Both the position numbers and the translations under genes were made by a program. This document shows positions 48,723 through 58,173 of a stretch of 64,000 nt of DNA, one piece after another. The notes under the pieces were generated by a model. That model was given only the letters and a program-made list of their open reading frames with translations, was not told the DNA's origin and searched no databases. Source of the DNA: a bacterium (GTDB lineage Bacteria; Sysuimicrobiota; Sysuimicrobiia; Sysuimicrobiales; Segetimicrobiaceae); the NCBI GenBank assembly GCA_035703895.1, contig DASSXJ010000113.1, forward strand, positions 4,159 through 68,158. Reading direction: 5' to 3'. Every line of letters begins with the position of its first letter. The stretch's first letter is position 1.

Positions 48723-48804
48723 ACTCACGGTGTCGAAATCCGGGTTGCCGGTCCGTCATGACACTGAATGGACAACTCAAGGCCCGACTGGGAGGTGGAT
48801 GTTC

Positions 48805-49152
48805 ATGCACTACAGCCTGCTGTTCTATCAGAGTCCCGAGGACTTTGCCGCTCGAACGGACCCGCGCAAGCGGGAGGCGTTCTGGGGCGCATTCCTTCCG
48901 TACATGAAGGCGCTCAGGGATGCCGGCGTCGTAGTCGCCGGAGCCGGTCTACAGCCACCCGACTCTGCCACCACATTGAGGCTGCAGGGCGACAAGCGCC
49001 TGGTGCAGGATGGACCGTACTCTGAGGCCAAGGAGCAACTGGGCGGATTCTTTGTCATCGATGTGCCGGACCTCGACACCGCCCTCGAATGGGCGGCACG
49101 CTATCCCGGCAAAGTGGTCGAGGTGCGGCCCAATCTCCCACCCGTCGAGTGA
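48805..49152 (+). CDS. YciI-like (YCII-related/DGPF) family protein
   Basis: MHYSLLFYQSPEDFAARTDP...FLPYMKALRDAGVVVAGAGLQPPDSATTLR...DGPYSEAKEQLGGFFVIDVPDLDTALEWAARYP is the YciI-like pattern, including a DGPY motif. GGAGG SD at 48791-48795. Confidence 0.8.
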   Translation: MHYSLLFYQSPEDFAARTDPRKREAFWGAFLPYMKALRDAGVVVAGAGLQPPDSATTLRLQGDKRLVQDGPYSEAKEQLGGFFVIDVPDLDTALEWAARYPGKVVEVRPNLPPVE

Positions 49153-49245
49153 AGGCCGATCAGCGACGCGCATCGCGCCATAGAGCGGGCGGCGTCTGAT
49201 TCGTACCGCCGTCTCGTCGCCTTTCTCGCGGCGCGGTCACATGAT

Positions 49246-50385
49246 GTGGCGGCGGCGGAGGACGCGCTTGCGGATGCGTTCCTGGCCGCGCTGGAGACGT
49301 GGCCGCGCACGGGGGTGCCGCACAAGCCTGAAGCGTGGCTGCTCACGGCGGCCCGCCGGCGGCTGATCGACGGATCCCGCCATGCGCGCGTGGAAGCGGG
49401 AGCGCTGCCCGCCCTACTCGCGGCGGCGGACGACGCGCACGCGGCAGCGGGCGCCGACACCGTATTCCCGGACGAGCGGCTCAAATTGCTGTTCATCTGC
49501 GCCCATCCCGCGATCGACGCGGCCGTGCGCACGCCGCTCATGCTTCAGACAGTCCTGGGGCTCGACGCGGCACGTATCGCGTCCGCGTTTCTCGTCAAAC
49601 CGGCGACGATGGGGCAGCGCCTCAGCCGCGCAAAGGCCAAGATCCGCGACGCGGGCATCCGATTTGAACTCCCCGATACTCTGGACTTGCCGCCGCGCCT
49701 CGACGCCGTGTTGGAAGCGATCTACGCCGCCTATGGCGCCGGCTGGGACGATCTGGCGGGAGCCGATCCGCGCCGAAGGGGGCTCGCCTCGGAGGCGATC
49801 GAACTCGGACGGCTCCTCCGGCACCTGATGCCGGGTGAACCGGAAGTACAGGGCCTCCTGGCGCTCATGCTGCACTGCGAGGCGCGCCGCGAAGCACGGC
49901 GCACCGAGGCCGGCGCCTACGTCCCACTGTCGGAGCAGGACACGACGCGCTGGTCCCGGCCGATGATCGAAGAGGCGGAGCAGCTGCTCGCAGAGGCCGC
50001 GCAGGCGGGCCGGCCGGGACGCTTTCAACTCGAGGCGGCGATTCAGTCGGTGCACGCGCTGCGCGCGGGAACGGGCGTGACCGACTGGGAGGCCGTTGCC
50101 CTGCTGTACGAAGGCGTGGTGCGCGCAGCGCCTACGATCGGAGCGCTCGTCGGGCGCGCCGCGGCGGTTGGCGAGGGCGGCGATGCGGTGAAAGCATGGG
50201 CTCTACTGGACGCGATCCCTGCCGAGGCGGTCGAACGGTACCAGCCCTACTGGGCGCTTGCGGCGCATCTCCTCACGCGCCTCGAGCGGCGGGGCGAGGC
50301 CGCCGCGGCGTACGACCGCGCCATTGGCTTGTGCGAGGATCCCGCCACGCGCGAATACCTGGCGCAGCGGCGACGATCGCCCTAA
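49246..50385 (+). CDS. ECF-type RNA polymerase sigma factor with long C-terminal extension; annotated start is suspect (see findings)
   Basis: Region 2 (AAAEDALADAFLAALETWP...PEAWLLTAARRRLID) and region 4 (ARIASAFLVKPATMGQRLSRAKAKIRDAGIRF) are recognisable. The conserved N-terminal segment ISDAHRAIERAASDSYRRLVAFLAARSHD is encoded in frame at 49159-49245 but has no ATG/GTG/TTG. Confidence 0.75.
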   Translation: MAAAEDALADAFLAALETWPRTGVPHKPEAWLLTAARRRLIDGSRHARVEAGALPALLAAADDAHAAAGADTVFPDERLKLLFICAHPAIDAAVRTPLMLQTVLGLDAARIASAFLVKPATMGQRLSRAKAKIRDAGIRFELPDTLDLPPRLDAVLEAIYAAYGAGWDDLAGADPRRRGLASEAIELGRLLRHLMPGEPEVQGLLALMLHCEARREARRTEAGAYVPLSEQDTTRWSRPMIEEAEQLLAEAAQAGRPGRFQLEAAIQSVHALRAGTGVTDWEAVALLYEGVVRAAPTIGALVGRAAAVGEGGDAVKAWALLDAIPAEAVERYQPYWALAAHLLTRLERRGEAAAAYDRAIGLCEDPATREYLAQRRRSP

Positions 50386-52410: not shown

Positions 52411-53073
52411 TCACCCTTTCGGCTGCGCCACGATGCGGATGTAGGGCCTCGGGGACTTCCAGCCCTGCGGATACGTCTTCTTGGCTTCGTCCTCGCTCAC
52501 GGAACCCGCGATGATCACGTCCTCGCCCTGCTTCCAGTTAACGGGCGTCGCCACCTTGTGTTTCGCGGTCAATTGCAGTGAATCGATCACGCGGATGACC
52601 TCGTCGAAGTTGCGGCCGGTGGTCATCGGGTAGACGATGATCAGCTTGATCTTTTTGTCCGGCCCGACGACGAAGACGTTGCGCACCGTCTGATTGTCGG
52701 CCGGTGTACGCTTGGACGCGTCACCTGAAGCGCTGGCGGGCAGCATGCCGTAGAGTTTGGAGATGCTCAGATCCGTATCGCCGATCATCGGGTAGTTGGG
52801 CGCGAAGCCCTGGGTCTCTTTGATGTCGTTCGCCCACTTCGCATGGTTGTCGACCGGGTCGACGCTGAGCCCGATGATCTTGGTGTTCCGCCGATCGAAC
52901 TCGGGCTTGAGCTTGGCCATGTACCCGAGCTCGGTGGTGCAGACAGGCGTGAAGTCCTTCGGATGCGAAAACAGCACGGCCCAGGAGCCACCGATCCAGT
53001 CGTGGAACCGGACGCGGCCTTCGGTCGTCTCCGCCTCGAAATCCGGAGCAATATCACCAATCTGAAGAGCCAT
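52411..53073 (-). CDS. 1-Cys peroxiredoxin (Prx6-type)
   Basis: The peroxidatic Cys context FTPVCTTELG, with PKDFTPVC, and 220-aa length are typical of 1-Cys Prx. Confidence 0.9.
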   Translation of the reverse strand: MALQIGDIAPDFEAETTEGRVRFHDWIGGSWAVLFSHPKDFTPVCTTELGYMAKLKPEFDRRNTKIIGLSVDPVDNHAKWANDIKETQGFAPNYPMIGDTDLSISKLYGMLPASASGDASKRTPADNQTVRNVFVVGPDKKIKLIIVYPMTTGRNFDEVIRVIDSLQLTAKHKVATPVNWKQGEDVIIAGSVSEDEAKKTYPQGWKSPRPYIRIVAQPKG

Positions 53074-53273: not shown

Positions 53274-54842
53274 TCAGATGAACTCCTCAACCACCTTGCA
53301 GAACACCTCAGTCACCCGCGGGTCAAACTGGTTGCCCGCACAACGCTTGATCTCCGCCACGGCCTCTGCGACTGTCCGTGCCGGTTTGTAGGGGCGAGCT
53401 TCCGTGATGGCCCCATACGCATCCACCACGGCCAGGATGCGCGAGCCGAGAGGAATCGCGTCGCCTGTCAATCCGTCGGGGTAGCCTGTGCCGTCCCACT
53501 TCTCTTGGTGATGGCGCACAAGCTTTGCCACGCCGCGCATCCGGTCCAACGAGCTGAGGATCTCCTCCCCGAGGATCGGATGCCGCCGCATGGTCGCCCA
53601 CTCTTGTTCCGTGAGGCCGCCCGGTTTACTCAGAATGGCGTCCGGTACGCCGATCTTCCCGATATCGTGCAGCCGGGCTCCCCAGCGGATATCCTGTACC
53701 TCTCCCTCCGGACAGCCGAGCTCGCGCGCGGTGCGCTCGGCCAGGTCCACCATGCGGTCACCGTGTTCGGCGGTGTATGAGTCCCGAGATTCGATGGCTT
53801 GTGCCAGCGCGATCACCATCTGCACGTACGCCTGCTGGAGTTTGTGATGCAGGCGGGCTCTGTGGATCGCCGTCCCCCCGATTTCGGCGATACCTTCCAA
53901 TAACCGGACTTCGGCATCCACGAACGGATGCGATCCAGCCCTCTTGATGCGCCCGAGGGCGATCGTCCCGATAAACTCTTGTTCGGACCGGACAGGAACA
54001 ATGACGACGGGGCCGAGCTGTTGATAGCGCGCCACATCCGGTCCGGCAGAAAGGGCGGTCACGAAATCGTCCGTGACGAACGGGGCGCCCGTCTCTACGA
54101 CACGCCCCGAGGGGGTGCCCGCAAGGGGGAAGGTCGTGCCACGTTCCTCGGTCGGCGTTCCCACCGTGTACACGCGCATGAAGGCCGGCCGGTCTGGACT
54201 CAACAAGGCGAGCGAACCATGATCGGCGCACAGTAACCGCATGCCGTGTCCAAGAAGGACGGGGTACATCTCCTCCGGGGCACAGGCCTTTCGCAGCTGC
54301 GCACTGAGATCGAAGAAGGTTTCCAGTTCGGCCGCGCGCCGGCGGATTTCCGCTTCCGCCGTCTTGCGCTCGGTGATGTCCACTATGGCGCCTTCGAGAT
54401 ATCGGGTCCGACCATTGACGGCGCGGACGGCGTGAGCGCTCGCGCGGATCCACATCGCCGTGCCATCGTGCCGCCACAGCTTACTTTCGAAATCTGCGAC
54501 CACCCCCTCCCGCTCGAGCAGCGTCGTCCACCGCTGCCGCGCCTCGGGATCGACATAGAGAGAGGCCGCGTTTACCGCCATCAGTGTTTCGCGATCTGGA
54601 TAGCCCAAGATGCGCAGAAAGGCGGGGTTGGCATCCAATATTTTCCCGCTCGGCGTGGACCGGTAGAGGCCTATGGGAACGCGTTCGAACAGGCTCCGGT
54701 AGGGCGAGTCGCGCGATGGATCCTCGATGCCTCCCGTATGGCGCGCGGTTGTGGGAGGCCCCGCAATGCCGGCCTCCGCTACGGACCGTCGTGAGCGCAG
54801 CGATGGCACGTTGCCGGCCTTCGGTTTCCCCACGGCTGCCAC
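53274..54842 (-). CDS. PAS-GAF-HD-GYP domain signalling protein (putative c-di-GMP phosphodiesterase)
   Basis: PAS-like N-terminal part (LFERVPIGLYRSTPSGKILDANPAFLRILGY), a GAF-like middle, and C-terminal HD-GYP motifs (HDIGKIGVPD ... GTGYPDGL). The exact start is uncertain because a terminator-like hairpin lies just upstream of the annotated GTG. Confidence 0.8.
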   Translation of the reverse strand: MAAVGKPKAGNVPSLRSRRSVAEAGIAGPPTTARHTGGIEDPSRDSPYRSLFERVPIGLYRSTPSGKILDANPAFLRILGYPDRETLMAVNAASLYVDPEARQRWTTLLEREGVVADFESKLWRHDGTAMWIRASAHAVRAVNGRTRYLEGAIVDITERKTAEAEIRRRAAELETFFDLSAQLRKACAPEEMYPVLLGHGMRLLCADHGSLALLSPDRPAFMRVYTVGTPTEERGTTFPLAGTPSGRVVETGAPFVTDDFVTALSAGPDVARYQQLGPVVIVPVRSEQEFIGTIALGRIKRAGSHPFVDAEVRLLEGIAEIGGTAIHRARLHHKLQQAYVQMVIALAQAIESRDSYTAEHGDRMVDLAERTARELGCPEGEVQDIRWGARLHDIGKIGVPDAILSKPGGLTEQEWATMRRHPILGEEILSSLDRMRGVAKLVRHHQEKWDGTGYPDGLTGDAIPLGSRILAVVDAYGAITEARPYKPARTVAEAVAEIKRCAGNQFDPRVTEVFCKVVEEFI

Positions 54843-54851
54843 CTCGCGGCC

Positions 54852-54887
54852 GAAAAATGAAACCAGTCGAGCACGGTGCTCGACTGG
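54852..54887 (-). terminator. rho-independent terminator-like hairpin (11-12 bp GC-rich stem) followed on the minus strand by UUUCAUUUUUC
   Basis: Plus-strand CCAGTCGAGCACGGTGCTCGACTGG is a perfect inverted repeat (54863-54887). It is preceded on the plus strand by GAAAAATGAAA (54852-54862), which is a U-tract on the minus strand. It lies downstream of the DUF2294 gene (minus) and 10-20 nt upstream of the annotated HD-GYP start. Confidence 0.5.
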
Positions 54888-55059
54888 TCTGCCACGGTAG
54901 CTACTGATGCCGCGCTACGGCAACAACTCCACCATGCCTCCCAGTCCCACACTGCACGCCGTTGCCCGGGCGCCGCGGGGCGTGCCCCGAAACCCTGGAC
55001 GTGGTTAGGGCCTCCTCCACCTTCGATCTCGTGATGCCCATACCCGTGCGTCTTTAGAC

Positions 55060-55509
55060 TCAACCACGATCGGCGTCGGGGGGGGCATCTGCGACCATCG
55101 CAATCTTTCGATCGAGCACGATGATGATCACGAGGTGGTCGGCGGCCGTGTCGAGATCGCTGTGGATGCAGACGACCCGCGCGCCCACCGCTTGTGCGAC
55201 CAGAGTCAACAGCATTGCCCCCCACGCGTCGAGCAGGCTGGTTCGAAATTGCTCGACCAGGCGGCGACCTTCAGGAGTCGCGGCGACATGCGTCTCCGCG
55301 GGGGTGAGCACATTCTTGAGGCGCAGCAGGATCATATCGTCGATCAGATAGACCTTCATGTTCTCCGGTCCCCGGCCGACCTGCTGCTTCATTAACCTCG
55401 TCAGGGCGTTTCCGATCGTCTCTTCCACTCGACGTCTGAGTTGGTCCAAGTCTCGATTCATCTCCCCATCCGGTATCCAGCTGATATTCGCAGACTGGCT
55501 AAGCGCCAT
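55060..55509 (-). CDS. DUF2294 family protein
   Basis: QQVGRGPENMKVYLIDDMILLRLKNVLTPAE matches the DUF2294 core as I recall it. Start at ATG 55509. Confidence 0.6.
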   Translation of the reverse strand: MALSQSANISWIPDGEMNRDLDQLRRRVEETIGNALTRLMKQQVGRGPENMKVYLIDDMILLRLKNVLTPAETHVAATPEGRRLVEQFRTSLLDAWGAMLLTLVAQAVGARVVCIHSDLDTAADHLVIIIVLDRKIAMVADAPPDADRG

Positions 55510-55587
55510 AGAGCGAGGCGCGCCACTCTGCCGTCGAAGCATAGTGTAGGGCGCGTCGCGAGAGAAATCTTTGCGCTACCACAATTC

Positions 55588-55601
55588 TTGCGCAGGCGCA
55601 A
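55588..55601. promoter_or_regulatory. 14-bp palindrome TTGCGC-AG-GCGCAA (candidate operator) with an additional TTGCGC half-site 12 nt upstream
   Basis: Seen directly in the ~190-bp divergent region between the DUF2294 gene and the MEDS-Crp gene. Half-sites at 55571-55576 and 55588-55593/55596-55601. Confidence 0.35.
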
Positions 55602-55701
55602 TGACAGCAGGTGCAGGGAAGGCGTGCGCTGGGCGCTCGTAGAGGATCTTACGCGCCTGAGTGGAAGGGGGACCCTCGCGACAGAGGGCAAGGTGACGAG
55701 T

Positions 55702-56943
55702 ATGGCTCGCGCCTTTGGGCAACGGTGGGGTGAGCTTCGGCCCGGAGACCACATCGGGTTCATCTATGAAGATGTGGGCGAGCTCACGTCGTTTGCCGTG
55801 TCCTTCATCAAAGACGGTCTTGCCCGGGGCGAACGCTGCGTGTACCTTGACGACGAACTTGGGCCGGCTGAGGTGACCGAGGCGCTGGTCAAAGGCGGAG
55901 TGGACGCCAATCGCGCGCTCGACCGCGGCACGTTGGTGATGTCGAGTCCGCGGGAATACTTCGCGCTGCCGCCATTCGAGCCCTCGCGAGTCATAGAGCT
56001 CATGCGCACCCGAGTGACGGAGGCCGTCTCCCGTGGCTTTAGCGGCTTGCGAATCGCCGGGGAAATGACGTGGACGCTCCACGAGGGTATCCGCGACGAT
56101 GCCCTCGTAGAGTATGAGTCGCTCCTCGACAAGGCTCTTGGTTCCGGCCTTCTCACCATGGCGTGTATGTATCGAAGAGATCGATTTCCCGCCGCAGTGC
56201 TCCAGCGATTGGTGCGCAGCCATGCGAAAGTTGTTGCCGGCGATCACGTGTACTTGAGCCTCAGCGCCTTGTTCCAGACCCTTGCCCGATCGGATTTGCA
56301 AGGACTCGTGCAGTCCGCGGGTGAACGCCGCGTACGCCAGGGAGACTTCTATTTTCTCCAGGGGGACCGGGCGACGGAAGTCTATATGCTGACAAGTGGG
56401 GAGGTAAAGCTGGTTCGAGCCGATCCCAACGGGCGAAACGTGATTCTCCGGATTATTGCGCCGGCGGAGCCGTTCGGAGAACGCGCTCTGTTCGGCGGGC
56501 CCACCCGGCTTTCCTCAGCACAAGCATTGGTGGACTCTCGGGCACTTGTCTGGGACGCCCCGACGATTCTTCACGTGATGATGAATCATCCCGCGGTCTC
56601 CTTAGATGCCGTTCGTCTGATGGAAGATAGGCTTGAGCAAGAGCGGATCCGCTTTCAGGATCTTGCCACAGCGCCTGTAGAACGCCGCCTGGCGCGTCTG
56701 TTGCTCCGCCTCGCCCAATCGATGGGGCGCAAGACGCCGCAGGGAATGGACATTGAGCTTTCGCTCTCGGGACAGGATTTGGCAGAACTGACGAGCGCCA
56801 CGCCGTCCACGGTCAGCCGAATTCTTGCGGAGTGGAGGCGCTCGGACATTGTAGACGCGCGGCGCGAGCGGATCTCCATTCTGAACCCCGAGCGCGTCGG
56901 TGCTATCGCTGGGGTAAGCGGCGATGAACGACCTTCCGCGTGA
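55702..56943 (+). CDS. MEDS-domain / Crp-FNR-family fusion transcriptional regulator
   Basis: N-terminal ~200 aa carry MEDS hallmarks (HIGFIYED... and LRIAGEMTW). The C-terminal half has a cNMP-binding-like beta-roll (YFLQGDRATEVYMLTSGEVKL...FGERALF) and a Crp-type HTH (LSGQDLAELTSATPSTVSRILAEW). Alternative GTG start at 55624 has an AGGGAAGG SD. Confidence 0.75.
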   Translation: MARAFGQRWGELRPGDHIGFIYEDVGELTSFAVSFIKDGLARGERCVYLDDELGPAEVTEALVKGGVDANRALDRGTLVMSSPREYFALPPFEPSRVIELMRTRVTEAVSRGFSGLRIAGEMTWTLHEGIRDDALVEYESLLDKALGSGLLTMACMYRRDRFPAAVLQRLVRSHAKVVAGDHVYLSLSALFQTLARSDLQGLVQSAGERRVRQGDFYFLQGDRATEVYMLTSGEVKLVRADPNGRNVILRIIAPAEPFGERALFGGPTRLSSAQALVDSRALVWDAPTILHVMMNHPAVSLDAVRLMEDRLEQERIRFQDLATAPVERRLARLLLRLAQSMGRKTPQGMDIELSLSGQDLAELTSATPSTVSRILAEWRRSDIVDARRERISILNPERVGAIAGVSGDERPSA

Positions 56944-56954
56944 CCCCTACCGGA

Positions 56955-57338
56955 TCACGAGACGGTGGGCAGCCCCAGCGTGAGCCGGACGGTGGTGCCG
57001 GCCGCGGTGGCATTGACGTGTACGCTGTCCGTGAGCGCCCGCATCAACTCGAGCCCGTGTCCGCGGCGTCGCCCCGACCGCCTCCAACGGCCGCGGTCCT
57101 CAACCTCGATCACCAGCATCGGGCCCTCCTGGCGTGCCCTCAGGAAGATTGTCCCCCCGGAGCCCAGGTAGGCGTGCTCGATCGCGTTGCTGACCGCCTC
57201 CCCGACCGCCACGAGCAGGCCTTCGGACTGTTCTCGATCGAGTTCGAGATCACGGGCGAGGGCCCTGAGCGCCCGTCGGATGTGCTGCAGGACGTGGGGG
57301 TCTGCCGGAACGCTCAAGTCCAACCGATCGACAAGAAC
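56955..57338 (-). CDS. HATPase_c-type anti-sigma-factor/serine kinase-like protein (RsbW-like)
   Basis: The C-terminal part (LAVGEAVSNAIEHAY...GTIFL...GHGLELM) is the Bergerat ATP-binding fold of RsbW/SpoIIAB-like kinases. The ORF extends to 57617, but the N-terminal 90 aa look non-coding and would abut the LOG gene, so the start was placed at an internal GTG about 57338. This is uncertain. Confidence 0.55.
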   Translation of the reverse strand, partial: VLVDRLDLSVPADPHVLQHIRRALRALARDLELDREQSEGLLVAVGEAVSNAIEHAYLGSGGTIFLRARQEGPMLVIEVEDRGRWRRSGRRRGHGLELMRALTDSVHVNATAAGTTVRLTLGLPTVS

Positions 57339-57618
57339 GCTCGGGGTTGGGCGGCGCTTGGGCTGCGTCGCGGTGCGGAGGCCGAAGCCAAGCTTATCGA
57401 TCAACGCGCGGACCAACACCGCGGCACCAACTCGTTCGTCCTCGTGGCGCACTCTGCGCCCTCGTGTCACAATACCCGTAACCGAACGCTCTCGCACAAC
57501 GGCTGCGGCGTTCGCCGGATTGTTGATCGACAGATACTTACCCTCTTCCCGGTCGTCCCAAACACCGGGACGAGCCCGGCGGTGCAGATTTACCGATGAT
57601 GCGACGAGGAGGAACACG

Positions 57619-58173
57619 ATGGCGGTGGCTCGCGTGACCGTGTTCGGGTCGTCCCGAGCGGCCGAGGGTGAGCATGGGTATCAGGAGGCGCTGCGCCTCG
57701 GCCGGTTGCTCGCGGGAGCAGGGTACGCGGTGTACTCGGGCGGATACGGCGGCGCGATGGAGGCCGTGAGCCGAGGGGCGGCGGATGCCGGCGGCATGGT
57801 GGTCGGGATCACGGTCCAACCGTGGGCGCCCCGCCTCCAGGCGAACTCCTGGGTGGGCGAGGAAGTCGTCACCCCGCACCTCTTCGAGCGGCTGCTGCGA
57901 TTGACAGAGAGCGACGCATTCGTCGCCCTCCCCGGCGGGCCGGGCACCCTCGGCGAAATGGCGCTCGTGTGGAACCTCTTCCAAACGGAGTCCGCCCCAA
58001 TCCGGCCCCTCATCCTGGTTGGTGCCCAATGGCGTCGGTTGGTCCGATGCTTCGAAGCGGAACTGCGTGTCGAGGCGAGGGATCTCGAGCTCCTGCAGTT
58101 TGCCGCGACGGTGGACGAGGTCCTCCCCCTCCTCCTCGGTCACTCGACCGGCGCGGCGAGCACCTCGGAGTAG
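57619..58173 (+). CDS. LOG-family protein (TIGR00730; cytokinin riboside 5'-monophosphate phosphoribohydrolase-like)
   Basis: VTVFGSSR...GYAVYSGGYGGAMEAVSRGAADAGGMVVGI...PGGPGTLGEMALVW are the LOG/YvdD family motifs (GGGxGxMG and PGGxGTxxE). GAGGAGG SD 6 nt upstream of ATG 57619. Confidence 0.8.
   Translation: MAVARVTVFGSSRAAEGEHGYQEALRLGRLLAGAGYAVYSGGYGGAMEAVSRGAADAGGMVVGITVQPWAPRLQANSWVGEEVVTPHLFERLLRLTESDAFVALPGGPGTLGEMALVWNLFQTESAPIRPLILVGAQWRRLVRCFEAELRVEARDLELLQFAATVDEVLPLLLGHSTGAASTSE

What the first reader, a model, noticed from the sequence alone, without database searches (positions are those of the whole stretch)
53274..57620. Signalling cluster built around an unusual MEDS-Crp/FNR fusion regulator, with an HATPase (RsbW-like) partner, DUF2294 and a PAS-GAF-HD-GYP protein
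The MEDS domain (LRIAGEMTW signature) is a small-molecule or hydrocarbon sensing module. It is usually found with histidine kinases or as a stand-alone protein such as DcmR. Here it replaces or augments the N-terminus of a Crp/FNR-type regulator with a cNMP-like beta-roll and a C-terminal HTH. This is an uncommon fusion.

The gene is divergent from a DUF2294 gene and convergent on a gene encoding an RsbW-like ATP-binding kinase/anti-sigma module. Just beyond are a c-di-GMP-type HD-GYP phosphodiesterase with PAS and GAF sensors and a 1-Cys peroxiredoxin. Together these look like a stress or redox second-messenger relay whose input ligand is unknown.
Basis: partly seen in the sequence, partly recalled or inferred. 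Interest (0 to 1): 0.55.

Follow-up and report, generated by a model that had tools for sequence, protein, structure and literature searches.

The report
MEDS-Crp regulator linked to HD-GYP enzyme
The window encodes a real but uncharacterised transcription factor, a Crp/FNR regulator with an inactive KaiC-like MEDS sensor domain at its N-terminus; in uncultured soil bacteria it keeps its own palindromic operator and recurs beside HD-GYP c-di-GMP phosphodiesterases, while the neighbouring RsbW-like kinase and the peroxiredoxin are bystanders.

Summary
Window 55702-56943(+) is one 413-aa protein with MEDS, cNMP-binding and Crp-type HTH domains.

The fusion is not a frameshift artefact. About 109 protein clusters, all from uncultured soil or sediment bacteria, share the architecture. 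A high-confidence model shows a KaiC/RecA-like MEDS domain without a P-loop on a canonical Crp body.

- **HATPase.** It is not a conserved partner. No RsbW-like gene lies near MEDS-Crp in 24 distinct related loci. Its own conserved partner is the divergent LOG/SLOG gene.
- **Peroxiredoxin.** It is syntenic only in close relatives.
- **HD-GYP.** HD-GYP genes with five different sensor architectures sit next to MEDS-Crp in about 7 of 24 distinct loci.
- **DUF2294.** It recurs in a smaller number of loci.
- **Operator.** A perfect palindrome, TTGCGC-N2-GCGCAA (FNR/NnrR type), lies upstream of MEDS-Crp genes (p ~1e-12). It is the only perfect copy in the 64-kb window.

Best reading: an autoregulated one-component regulator coupled to HD-GYP signalling, ligand unknown. 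It is a new variant of a known kind. A very conserved 217-nt leader with a terminator precedes the HD-GYP gene.

The parts
55702..56943 (+). MEDS-Crp one-component regulator, 413 aa. MEDS (inactive KaiC/RecA-like) covers residues 16-174 (about 55747-56223). The cNMP-binding beta-roll covers 209-296 (about 56326-56589). A long dimerisation helix spans 297-323. The Crp-type wHTH covers 329-398 (about 56686-56895).
55588..55601 (.). Perfect 14-bp palindrome TTGCGCAGGCGCAA. It is the predicted operator of MEDS-Crp (FNR/NnrR-type TTG-N8-CAA box) and lies in the mpsC / MEDS-Crp divergent intergenic region.
   Evidence: It is the only perfect copy in the 64-kb window. Perfect copies lie 115-390 nt upstream of MEDS-Crp genes in L001, L003, L011, L015, L018, L020 (two), L043 (two) and L050. 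Counts are 10 in 11,875 nt upstream against 2 in 260,119 nt elsewhere, p = 1.5e-12. It is the best-conserved island of the intergenic alignment.
55571..55584 (.). Second, imperfect box TTGCGCTACCACAA (1 mismatch), 3 nt from the perfect box.
   Evidence: The same tandem arrangement is found in L015 (TTGCGGTAACACAA + TTGCGCTGGCGCAA) and L050.
55060..55461 (-). DUF2294/MpsC small protein (133 aa from ATG 55461; the ORF extends to 55542). It is divergent from MEDS-Crp and is a recurrent neighbour.
54843..55059 (-). Highly conserved 217-nt spacer or leader upstream of the HD-GYP gene. It ends in a 14-bp hairpin plus T-run (54890..54860), 18 nt before the start codon. It is a candidate cis-regulatory RNA or attenuator.
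   Evidence: Terminator scan. Identity to L050 and L015 is 98.2% and 88.4%, against 92.3/84.8% for mpsC, 95.1/83.4% for HD-GYP and 86.7/71.4% for the other intergenic region. Four copies aligned. Frame-breaking 1-nt indels argue against coding. No Rfam match. One compensatory pair only.
53274..54842 (-). PAS-GAF-HD-GYP protein (522 aa), a putative c-di-GMP phosphodiesterase and the most specific recurrent neighbour of MEDS-Crp.
   Evidence: Pfam HD_5 2.9e-42, GAF_2 and PAS_9. HD and GYP motifs are visible in the translation. Orthologues or analogues lie next to MEDS-Crp in L002, L008, L015, L020, L030, L043, L050 and L051.
56955..57452 (-). HATPase_c_2 (RsbW-like) protein, probably 165 aa (the ORF extends to 57617). 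Evaluated and judged NOT part of the MEDS-Crp module. It forms a conserved divergent pair with the LOG/SLOG gene.
   Evidence: Pfam. Homologues. Contexts L046-L049. Absent near other MEDS-Crp genes.
57619..58173 (+). LOG / SLOG-cluster-4 (Lysine_decarbox) protein, the conserved divergent partner of the HATPase_c_2 gene. Not part of the MEDS-Crp module.
   Evidence: Pfam PF03641 and PF18306. The same pair occurs in L046, L047, L048 and L049.

Best explanation
The centre of the finding is a member of a small, lineage-restricted family of one-component transcription factors. In it, an N-terminal MEDS domain is fused to a complete Crp/FNR body.

**Shown**
- The MEDS domain has a KaiC/RecA-like fold that has lost its P-loop.
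- The Crp/FNR body has a beta-roll effector domain, a long dimerisation helix and a winged HTH.
- The architecture is conserved in more than 100 clusters.
- A perfect palindrome TTGCGC-N2-GCGCAA lies upstream of these genes far more often than chance allows.
- HD-GYP genes, and to a lesser degree DUF2294 genes, recur as neighbours.

**Inferred**
- The protein binds that palindrome as a dimer. It thereby controls its own promoter and the divergent promoter: mpsC in this window, and the HD-GYP gene itself in L002, L008 and L043.
- The MEDS domain acts as the regulatory input. The nearest MEDS domains sit at the N-terminus of histidine kinases, PP2C phosphatases and RsbA anti-sigma kinases, so it behaves as a portable input module.
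- The regulator and the HD-GYP phosphodiesterase form a functional pair. Either the regulator sets HD-GYP expression, or the enzyme sets the level of a nucleotide that the regulator senses through its beta-roll. The phosphate-binding-cassette Arg-x-x-Ser-Ala of that beta-roll is conserved.

The HATPase_c_2 and LOG pair and the peroxiredoxin are neighbouring but independent units.
For: **Domains and single ORF.**

**Family.** 109 clusters share the architecture (alignments).

**Structure.**
- AF2 gives pLDDT 90.2 and pTM 0.87.
- In the sequence the strand-loop-helix 'HIGFIYEDVGELTSF' leaves no room for a GxxGxGK[ST] loop. This is read.
- MEDS is classed as an inactivated KaiC in PMC5847659.
- The Crp part is closest to the cAMP-binding GlxR and Mtb Crp (5e-37). 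R269, S272 and A273 are conserved.

**Operator.**
- Evidence comes (p = 1.5e-12).
- The box is kept in L011, where the divergent gene is different.
- It is of the NnrR/FNR type, ctTTGcgnnnncgCAAag (PMC1274295).
- A box also lies 126 nt upstream of an mpsC gene in L012.

**HD-GYP linkage.**
- Five architectures were seen: PAS-GAF, GAF, REC-PAS-PAS-GAF, dCache-HAMP-GAF-GAF and HD only.
- Three arrangements were seen: divergent, downstream of a second MEDS-Crp gene, and via mpsC. Together these argue for repeated rather than inherited association.
- Perfect or 1-mismatch boxes lie in the shared HD-GYP / MEDS-Crp intergenic regions of L043, L002 and L008.

**MEDS as a modular input.**

**Bystanders.**
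Against: - No experiment exists. DNA binding, the ligand and HD-GYP activity are all unverified.
- 14 of 24 distinct loci have no HD_5 gene within 5 kb, so the coupling is facultative.
- About half of the family, the clades at about 50-53% identity, lack a perfect box. Their operator may differ, or autoregulation may not be general.
- The box could be bound by another Crp/FNR paralogue. Extra Crp genes lie beside MEDS-Crp in L007/L031/L032, L019 and L035.
- The Glu of the canonical cNMP cassette is not conserved, so a classical cNMP ligand is uncertain.
- In this window no box lies directly before the HD-GYP gene. A terminator-like hairpin separates that gene from mpsC.
- The loci are phylogenetically related, so the counts overstate independence.
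Confidence: 0.6

Rival explanations
1. All five genes form one stress or redox second-messenger relay, and the MEDS domain of the regulator works with the adjacent RsbW-like HATPase_c_2 protein. That would be a 'split RsbA': MEDS plus kinase, acting by partner switching or phosphorylation of the regulator.
For: - MEDS and HATPase_c_2 are fused in RsbA-family anti-sigma factors.
- The NCBIfam RsbA model NF041045 matches the MEDS part over model positions 3-153 (2.4e-14). It matches the HATPase protein over positions 184-302 (4.5e-16).
- RsbA-family proteins with MEDS + HATPase_c_2 appear among distant HATPase homologues (P0162, P0163).
- The two genes are only 11 nt apart.
- The adjacency is kept in a 91%-identical relative (L046).
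Against: - The genes are convergent, so they are not co-transcribed.
- No HATPase_c_2 gene lies near MEDS-Crp in any of 24 distinct related loci.
- It is absent downstream of an 81%-identical MEDS-Crp (L016).
- The HATPase is instead always paired with the LOG/SLOG gene, while its other neighbour varies.
- Both proteins score far below the RsbA family cutoff (53 and 59 bits against 210).
- The peroxiredoxin is syntenic only in the closest relative.
Confidence: 0.08
2. MEDS-Crp is essentially an ordinary cAMP- or cNMP-responsive Crp of the actinobacterial GlxR/Crp type with an extra N-terminal oligomerisation or scaffold domain. The HD-GYP and DUF2294 genes are merely members of its regulon, and there is no signalling feedback between enzyme and regulator.
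For: - The closest solved relatives of the C-terminal 220 residues are the cAMP receptors GlxR and Mtb Crp (5e-37).
- The window protein has a nearly canonical cassette, FGERALFGGPTRLSSA, against FGELSIFDPGPRTSSA in GlxR.
- Boxes lie in shared promoters with HD-GYP genes.
- KaiC-like domains oligomerise; this rests on established knowledge of KaiC/RecA.
Against: - The cassette Glu that contacts the ribose is not conserved across the family.
- All Crp equivalog models score far below their cutoffs.
- The operator is FNR/NnrR-like rather than the Crp type TGTGA-N6-TCACA.
- The closest MEDS domains behave as sensor inputs of kinases and phosphatases.
Confidence: 0.22
3. The gene neighbourhood carries no functional meaning. 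MEDS-Crp is an isolated regulator that happens to lie in signalling-rich regions. The recurrence of HD-GYP reflects shared ancestry of a few syntenic loci plus a high density of signalling genes in these genomes.
For: - Neighbourhoods are very variable.
- 14 of 24 distinct loci lack HD_5 within 5 kb.
- Response regulators and histidine kinases are also frequent neighbours.
- W, L015, L050 and L051 are one syntenic clade.
Against: - The HD_5 neighbours have five different domain architectures and three different arrangements in separate clades of the MEDS-Crp tree.
- The 64-kb window has only one HD_5 gene, and it is the one here.
- In L020 an HD-GYP gene directly follows a second MEDS-Crp gene on the same strand.
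Confidence: 0.1

Closest known systems
Crp/FNR superfamily regulators: actinobacterial Crp/GlxR (PDB 4cyd, 3mzh, 3i54) for the protein body, and NnrR/Dnr/FNR for the operator type
   Same: - C-terminal 220 residues: beta-roll, long C-helix and wHTH.
- Profile E 5e-37 to GlxR and Mtb Crp.
- Predicted 14-bp palindrome with a TTG-N8-CAA core, like the NnrR consensus ctTTGcgnnnncgCAAag.
   Different: - It carries an extra 185-residue N-terminal MEDS domain that no characterised Crp/FNR protein has.
- It scores far below every NCBIfam equivalog cutoff (NtcA 65/245, CRP 49.5/266, FNR 37/228).
- It has no FNR Cys cluster, and the cassette Glu is variable.
DcmR and other MEDS + HTH regulators (Methylorubrum DcmR; the Methylohalobius crimeensis MEDS-HTH protein)
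   Same: MEDS domain combined with a DNA-binding domain in a single one-component regulator (PMC11507031).
   Different: Those proteins have a simple HTH without a cNMP-type beta-roll or a Crp dimerisation helix. They are linked to C1 or C2 halocarbon and epoxide catabolic genes, which are absent here.
RsbA-family anti-sigma factors (NF041045; MEDS + HATPase_c_2)
   Same: N-terminal MEDS domain. The window even has an HATPase_c_2 gene next door, and each half matches the matching half of the RsbA model.
   Different: - The two parts are separate, convergent genes whose adjacency is not conserved.
- Scores are 53 and 59 bits against a cutoff of 210.
- The output here is DNA binding, not sigma-factor sequestration.
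Clp, the Crp-like c-di-GMP-responsive regulator of Xanthomonas and Lysobacter, with its phosphodiesterase partners (RpfG HD-GYP; LchP)
   Same: A Crp-family transcription factor functionally coupled to a c-di-GMP phosphodiesterase. LchP binds Clp and forms a local signalling complex (PMC6182147).
   Different: - Clp has no MEDS domain.
- c-di-GMP binding by MEDS-Crp is untested.
- The coupling here is inferred only from gene neighbourhood.
- The lineage is unrelated.
KaiC/RecA-like ATPases (PH0284, archaeal FlaH) and 'iKaiC' output domains
   Different: The Walker A loop is deleted (strand 17-22, then 'ED', then helix 25-41). ATP binding and hydrolysis are therefore not expected.

Membership tests
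Crp/FNR superfamily | cNMP-binding-type beta-roll effector domain | tested here: met
   [not shown]
Crp/FNR superfamily | C-terminal Crp-type winged HTH preceded by a long dimerisation helix | tested here: met
   PF13545, 59.7 bits against a cutoff of 27, residues 329-398. The AF2 model has helix 297-323 followed by the HTH.
Crp/FNR superfamily | Binding as a dimer to a palindromic operator (TTG-N8-CAA or TGTGA-N6-TCACA type) | tested here: inconclusive
   The palindrome TTGCGC-N2-GCGCAA is strongly enriched upstream of MEDS-Crp genes (p = 1.5e-12). Binding itself is not testable in silico.
Crp/FNR superfamily | Allosteric effector: cAMP, 2-OG, haem, an Fe-S cluster or another ligand | not testable with these tools
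   The cassette Arg269, Ser272 and Ala273 are conserved and Glu260 is not. There is no Cys cluster. The ligand is unknown.
Named Crp/FNR equivalogs (NtcA, CRP, FNR, FixK, LdrP, PtrA) | Score above the NCBIfam equivalog cutoff | tested here: not met
   The best is NtcA at 65.3 bits against 244.95. CRP scores 49.5 against 266 and FNR 37.1 against 228.
MEDS domain family (PF14417) | Match to the Pfam model above the gathering score, including the conserved R-x-x-x-E-x-x-W block | tested here: met
   134.7 bits against 29.8, covering model positions 1-160 of 161. R117 and W124 are conserved in at least 90% of 96 family members.
MEDS domain family (PF14417) | Inactivated KaiC/RecA-like fold | tested here: met
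   [not shown]
MEDS domain family (PF14417) | Sensing of small hydrocarbon derivatives, as proposed for DcmR and EtnR2 | not testable with these tools
   No hydrocarbon or C1 catabolic genes were seen in the neighbourhoods. The proposal itself is a prediction in the literature.
RsbA anti-sigma factor family (NF041045) | MEDS and HATPase_c_2 in one polypeptide, scoring above the family cutoff | tested here: not met
   The two parts are separate convergent genes, scoring 53.3 and 59 bits against a cutoff of 210.
RsbW/SpoIIAB-type anti-sigma kinases (for the HATPase gene) | HATPase_c_2 domain with N-box and G-boxes | tested here: met
   PF13581, 80.5 bits against 27.4. The motifs GEAVSNAIEHA and GHGLELM are visible in the translation.
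RsbW/SpoIIAB-type anti-sigma kinases (for the HATPase gene) | Equivalog-level similarity, and a cognate STAS antagonist or sigma factor gene alongside | tested here: not met
   RsbW scores 43 bits against 145 and SpoIIAB 44.6 against 135. In L046-L049 and in the window the conserved neighbour is a LOG/SLOG gene, not a STAS or sigma gene.
HD-GYP c-di-GMP phosphodiesterases | HD_5 domain with HD and GYP motifs | tested here: met
   PF13487, 144.7 bits against 27.2. The motifs 'LHDIGK' and 'HHQEKWDGTGYP' are in the translation.
HD-GYP c-di-GMP phosphodiesterases | Hydrolysis of c-di-GMP | not testable with these tools
   This needs an enzyme assay.
c-di-GMP-responsive Crp-like regulators (Clp type) | Direct c-di-GMP binding that changes DNA affinity | not testable with these tools
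   The only evidence is genomic linkage to HD-GYP genes.

The most novel reading that the evidence does not exclude
MEDS-Crp, the HD-GYP enzyme and DUF2294 form a previously undescribed local second-messenger module.

- The Crp beta-roll or the pseudo-KaiC MEDS domain senses c-di-GMP or an HD-GYP product (pGpG or GMP).
- The regulator in turn controls the enzyme and a small sensor protein, which may have a V4R/H-NOX-like fold.
- The HD-GYP gene is additionally gated by a new riboswitch-like leader, the 217-nt element that is conserved more strongly than the flanking coding DNA.

This would be the first functional assignment for a MEDS-Crp architecture, and possibly a new cis-regulatory RNA class.
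Probability: 0.15. Interest if true: 0.7.

Novelty: new variant of a known kind. Interest (0 to 1): 0.45.

Why it matters
**Gaps in current knowledge.**
- Crp/FNR regulators are among the best-studied bacterial transcription factors. Their known inputs all act through the beta-roll or an N-terminal Fe-S cluster.
- MEDS is a widespread but biochemically uncharacterised 'sensor' domain. The full-text search returned no experimental ligand or structural study of it. The profile search of PDB sequences matched only the Crp body.

**What this family offers.**
- It joins the two into a simple one-protein system with an easy readout, DNA binding to a predicted 14-bp operator. That would be a convenient handle for finding out what MEDS domains actually sense or bind.
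- The repeated pairing with HD-GYP phosphodiesterases gives a concrete, testable hypothesis for a second-messenger link. The host is an uncultured soil lineage in which nothing is known about c-di-GMP signalling.

**Annotation practice.** The negative result also matters. The attractive 'split RsbA' reading of the adjacent kinase does not survive comparative analysis.

Tried and rejected
1. **Frameshift or two-gene artefact.** Rejected. It is a single ORF, and 109 clusters have the same architecture.
2. **A longer 500-aa ORF from TTG 55441.** Rejected. The N-terminal extension is not conserved as protein. It overlaps the conserved DNA box ('QFLRRRND' is the translated palindrome). ATG 55702 also has a conserved Shine-Dalgarno.
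3. **HATPase_c_2 as a conserved partner.** Rejected.
4. **Peroxiredoxin as part of the module.** Rejected. It is found only in L050.
5. **A known riboswitch before the HD-GYP gene, for example c-di-GMP-I or -II.** No Rfam match at E <= 1. A covariance model of the 5' half of the leader found no further copies in 23 sources.
6. **The leader as a small ORF.** Unlikely, because of frame-breaking 1-nt indels between copies.
8. **Sigma-70 promoter scan.** Uninformative; it found 1 hit against 1.0 expected.
9. **Taxonomy of 'ANGP1'.** The name is not in the taxonomy copy, and the literature search was irrelevant.
10. **Literature on a MEDS-Crp fusion.** None was found. Only 8 papers contain 'MEDS domain', and none of the six listed concerns a Crp fusion.

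Full report
**1. What is in the sequence**

- **MEDS-Crp, 55702-56943(+).** One 413-aa protein. MEDS covers residues 16-174 (E 3.3e-39), cNMP_binding covers 209-296 (2.4e-19), and HTH_Crp_2 covers 329-398 (2.7e-16).
- **DUF2294/MpsC, 55060-55542(-).** It lies divergently upstream (1.1e-27).
- **PAS-GAF-HD_5, 53274-54842(-).** It has intact HD and GYP motifs.
- **1-Cys peroxiredoxin, 52411-53073(-).**
- **HATPase_c_2, 56955-57617(-).** It lies convergently downstream, 11 nt away, and is RsbW-like (1.4e-22).
- **LOG/SLOG-cluster-4, 57619-58173(+).** It is divergent from the HATPase gene.

Gene starts can be refined from homologues.
- MEDS-Crp starts at ATG 55702, behind a conserved AAGGTGA.
- MpsC starts at ATG 55461, giving 133 aa.
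- The HATPase starts at GTG 57452, giving 165 aa.

**2. The fusion is a real, conserved but rare family**

- A search of 5.8 billion clustered proteins returned 109 clusters, 39-97% identical to the query. All carry MEDS + cNMP_binding + HTH_Crp_2 in about 405-430 residues. After them the list drops straight to ordinary Crp proteins of about 240 aa.
- All hits come from metagenomes or MAGs, mostly soil. The few named records are deposited as 'Bacillati bacterium ANGP1', 'Bacillota bacterium', 'Chloroflexi bacterium' or just 'bacterium'.
- Only 8 of 185,579 species-representative genomes carry it.
- In the library of 1.84 billion 50%-identity representatives, the profile finds just three full-length representatives plus fragments.
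- The full-text search found no paper describing the architecture.

**3. Anatomy of the protein**

- An AlphaFold2 model built on 96 family members is confident (pLDDT 90.2, pTM 0.87).
- This agrees with the published classification of MEDS as an inactivated KaiC (PMC5847659).
- In the sequence, strand 17-22 runs into helix 25-41 through only 'ED'. The Walker A loop is therefore gone, and ATPase activity is not expected.
- By profile search, the Crp body is closest to the cAMP receptors GlxR and M. tuberculosis Crp (5e-37). The phosphate-binding cassette keeps Arg269, Ser272 and Ala273 in at least 90% of members. The ribose-binding Glu is variable.
- No NCBIfam equivalog (NtcA, CRP, FNR, FixK and others) comes near its cutoff.
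- The nearest MEDS domains outside the family sit at the N-terminus of histidine kinases, MEDS-MEDS proteins and a GAF-SpoIIE phosphatase. In RsbA-type proteins MEDS precedes an HATPase_c_2 domain. MEDS therefore behaves as a portable N-terminal input module, and here it has been placed on a Crp output.

**4. A candidate operator**

- The mpsC / MEDS-Crp intergenic region contains a perfect palindrome, TTGCGCAGGCGCAA (55588-55601), and an adjacent 1-mismatch copy (55571-55584).
- The perfect one is the only perfect copy in the 64-kb window.
- Perfect copies lie 115-390 nt upstream of the start of the MEDS domain of MEDS-Crp genes in L001, L003, L011, L015, L018, L020 (two), L043 (two) and L050. 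One-mismatch copies occur in L002, L008 and L044.
- Across 24 distinct loci there are 10 perfect boxes in the 11,875 nt upstream of these genes, against 2 in the remaining 260,119 nt (binomial p = 1.5e-12).
- One of the two 'other' boxes lies 126 nt upstream of an mpsC gene (L012).
- In an alignment of four intergenic regions, the box is the best-conserved island. That includes L011, where the divergent gene is unrelated.
- The motif is of the FNR/NnrR type (ctTTGcgnnnncgCAAag; PMC1274295).
- I infer that MEDS-Crp binds it and autoregulates, and that in this window it also controls mpsC.
- On the minus strand a conserved TAcACT (55548-55543) would put the imperfect box at about -41.5 of an mpsC promoter. 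That is inference only.

**5. Which neighbours matter**

I collected 51 related loci and scored them with local profiles and with Pfam.

*HD-GYP.*
- HD_5 genes are immediate or next-but-one neighbours of MEDS-Crp in W, L002, L008, L015, L020, L030, L043, L050 and L051.
- After merging close relatives, that is about 7 of 24 distinct loci. Three more loci have an HD_5 gene within 5 kb (L017, L018, L044).
- The enzymes differ in architecture: PAS-GAF, GAF only, REC-PAS-PAS-GAF, dCache-HAMP-GAF-GAF, and bare HD-GYP.
- They also differ in arrangement. Some are divergent, some lie behind mpsC, and in L020 one directly follows a second MEDS-Crp gene on the same strand.
- They fall in separate clades of the MEDS-Crp tree.
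- The window itself has one HD_5 gene in 64 kb, and it is this one.
- This pattern argues for a functional link, not inherited synteny alone.

*DUF2294/MpsC.* It recurs in W, L012 (two copies), L015, L020, L050 and L051.

*Paralogues.* Tandem MEDS-Crp paralogues are common (L001/L017, L018, L043, L020).

*HATPase_c_2.*
- A profile built from its homologues finds no copy in 45 related loci.
- It is absent from the 25 most frequent families among 127 neighbouring ORFs.
- L016, which is 81% identical, has a dehydrogenase-like gene in its place.
- Looking from the kinase outward, in L046-L049 it is always divergently paired with the LOG/SLOG gene. The gene on the far side is MEDS-Crp (only in the 91%-identical relative), an HD_5 gene, or an ABC permease.
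- The 'split RsbA' idea is tempting. The RsbA model NF041045 hits the MEDS part with positions 3-153 and the kinase with positions 184-302. The idea is not supported by conservation, and both scores are far below the family cutoff.

*Peroxiredoxin.* It is present only in the nearest syntenic relative.

**6. Mechanism proposed**

*Shown.* The architecture, the fold, the conserved operator-like palindrome, and the recurrent HD-GYP and DUF2294 neighbourhood.

*Inferred.*
- A dimeric one-component regulator binds TTGCGC-N2-GCGCAA. It controls its own gene and the divergent gene, which is mpsC here and the HD-GYP gene in L002, L008 and L043.
- MEDS supplies the regulatory input.
- The regulator and the HD-GYP enzyme are coupled. 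Either the enzyme is a regulon member, or it controls a nucleotide sensed by the regulator.
- There is precedent for a Crp-like factor coupled to c-di-GMP phosphodiesterases in Clp with RpfG and LchP (PMC6182147). That is a resemblance, not a demonstrated membership.

The ligand is unknown. Overall confidence in this reading is about 0.6. The purely anatomical part is near certain.

**7. An extra feature worth a look**

- The 217-nt spacer between mpsC and the HD-GYP gene (54843-55059, minus strand) ends in a 14-bp hairpin plus T-run. The hairpin lies 18 nt before the HD-GYP start codon.
- The spacer is more conserved than the genes around it. Against L050 it is 98.2% identical, compared with 92-95% for the genes. 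Against L015 it is 88.4%, compared with 83-85%. The other intergenic region is only 87% and 71% identical.
- A fourth copy (L051) shows the same pattern. Substitutions concentrate in predicted loops, 1-nt indels rule out a reading frame, and there is a single compensatory pair.
- There is no Rfam match, and a covariance model found no copy in more distant loci.
- It may be a lineage-specific attenuator or riboswitch-like leader of the HD-GYP gene. With four close copies this cannot be decided.

**8. Verdict**

It is partly wrong: the kinase partner and the redox relay do not hold.

The object is a new, uncharacterised domain architecture within two known families, and it is restricted to an uncultured lineage. 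I call it a new variant of a known kind. It is of moderate interest, mainly because it offers a tractable route to the function of MEDS domains and a testable link to c-di-GMP signalling.

Noticed in passing
window 54843-55059 (-); also L050:1469-1685, L015:1365-1576, L051:2161-2378: A 217-nt spacer between mpsC and the HD-GYP gene is more conserved than the flanking coding DNA. It ends in a strong terminator-like hairpin (54890..54860) just before the HD-GYP start codon. There is no Rfam match. It is a candidate new cis-regulatory leader, an attenuator or a riboswitch-like element.
   Followed up: partly
window 56955-57452 (-) and 57619-58173 (+); L046, L047, L048, L049: The RsbW-like HATPase_c_2 gene and a LOG/SLOG-cluster-4 (Lysine_decarbox) gene form a conserved divergent pair separated by about 166 nt. 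The pair is kept in four other loci while the outer neighbours change. I know of no described pairing of an anti-sigma-type kinase with a SLOG protein. No STAS or sigma gene lies adjacent.
   Followed up: partly
L001/L017 (3692-6194), L018 (176-2680), L043 (5028-7861), L020 (3282-4478 and 5254-5838): MEDS-Crp genes often occur as tandem paralogue pairs (54-65% identical to the window protein). Each clade of the pair is conserved, which suggests heterodimers or a two-tier circuit. Extra plain Crp genes also lie beside MEDS-Crp in L007/L031/L032, L019 and L035.
   Followed up: no
[not shown]
   Followed up: partly
window 48730-50385 (+); L050:6246-7832: A YCII-domain gene is followed by an ECF-type sigma factor with a DUF6596 C-terminal extension. 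The pair is syntenic in L050. It lies about 3 kb from the HD-GYP gene and was not examined for any link to the cluster.
   Followed up: no
L032:2180-2193 (= L007:2305-2318): A perfect TTGCGTCCGCGCAA box lies 131 nt upstream of a glucose-6-phosphate dehydrogenase gene, 2.8 kb from the MEDS-Crp gene of that locus. It is a possible additional regulon member.
   Followed up: no
L011 and L044: Pyruvate:ferredoxin oxidoreductase genes (POR/PFOR alpha and beta subunits) lie within 2-4 kb of MEDS-Crp in two distant loci. This is too few to judge.
   Followed up: no
window 1-48000: The rest of the window is dominated by peptide- and oligopeptide-type ABC transporter genes (10 BPD_transp_1 permeases, 4 SBP_bac_5 proteins) and metabolic enzymes. 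No further MEDS, HD_5, MpsC or HATPase_c_2 genes were found with the local profiles.
   Followed up: partly
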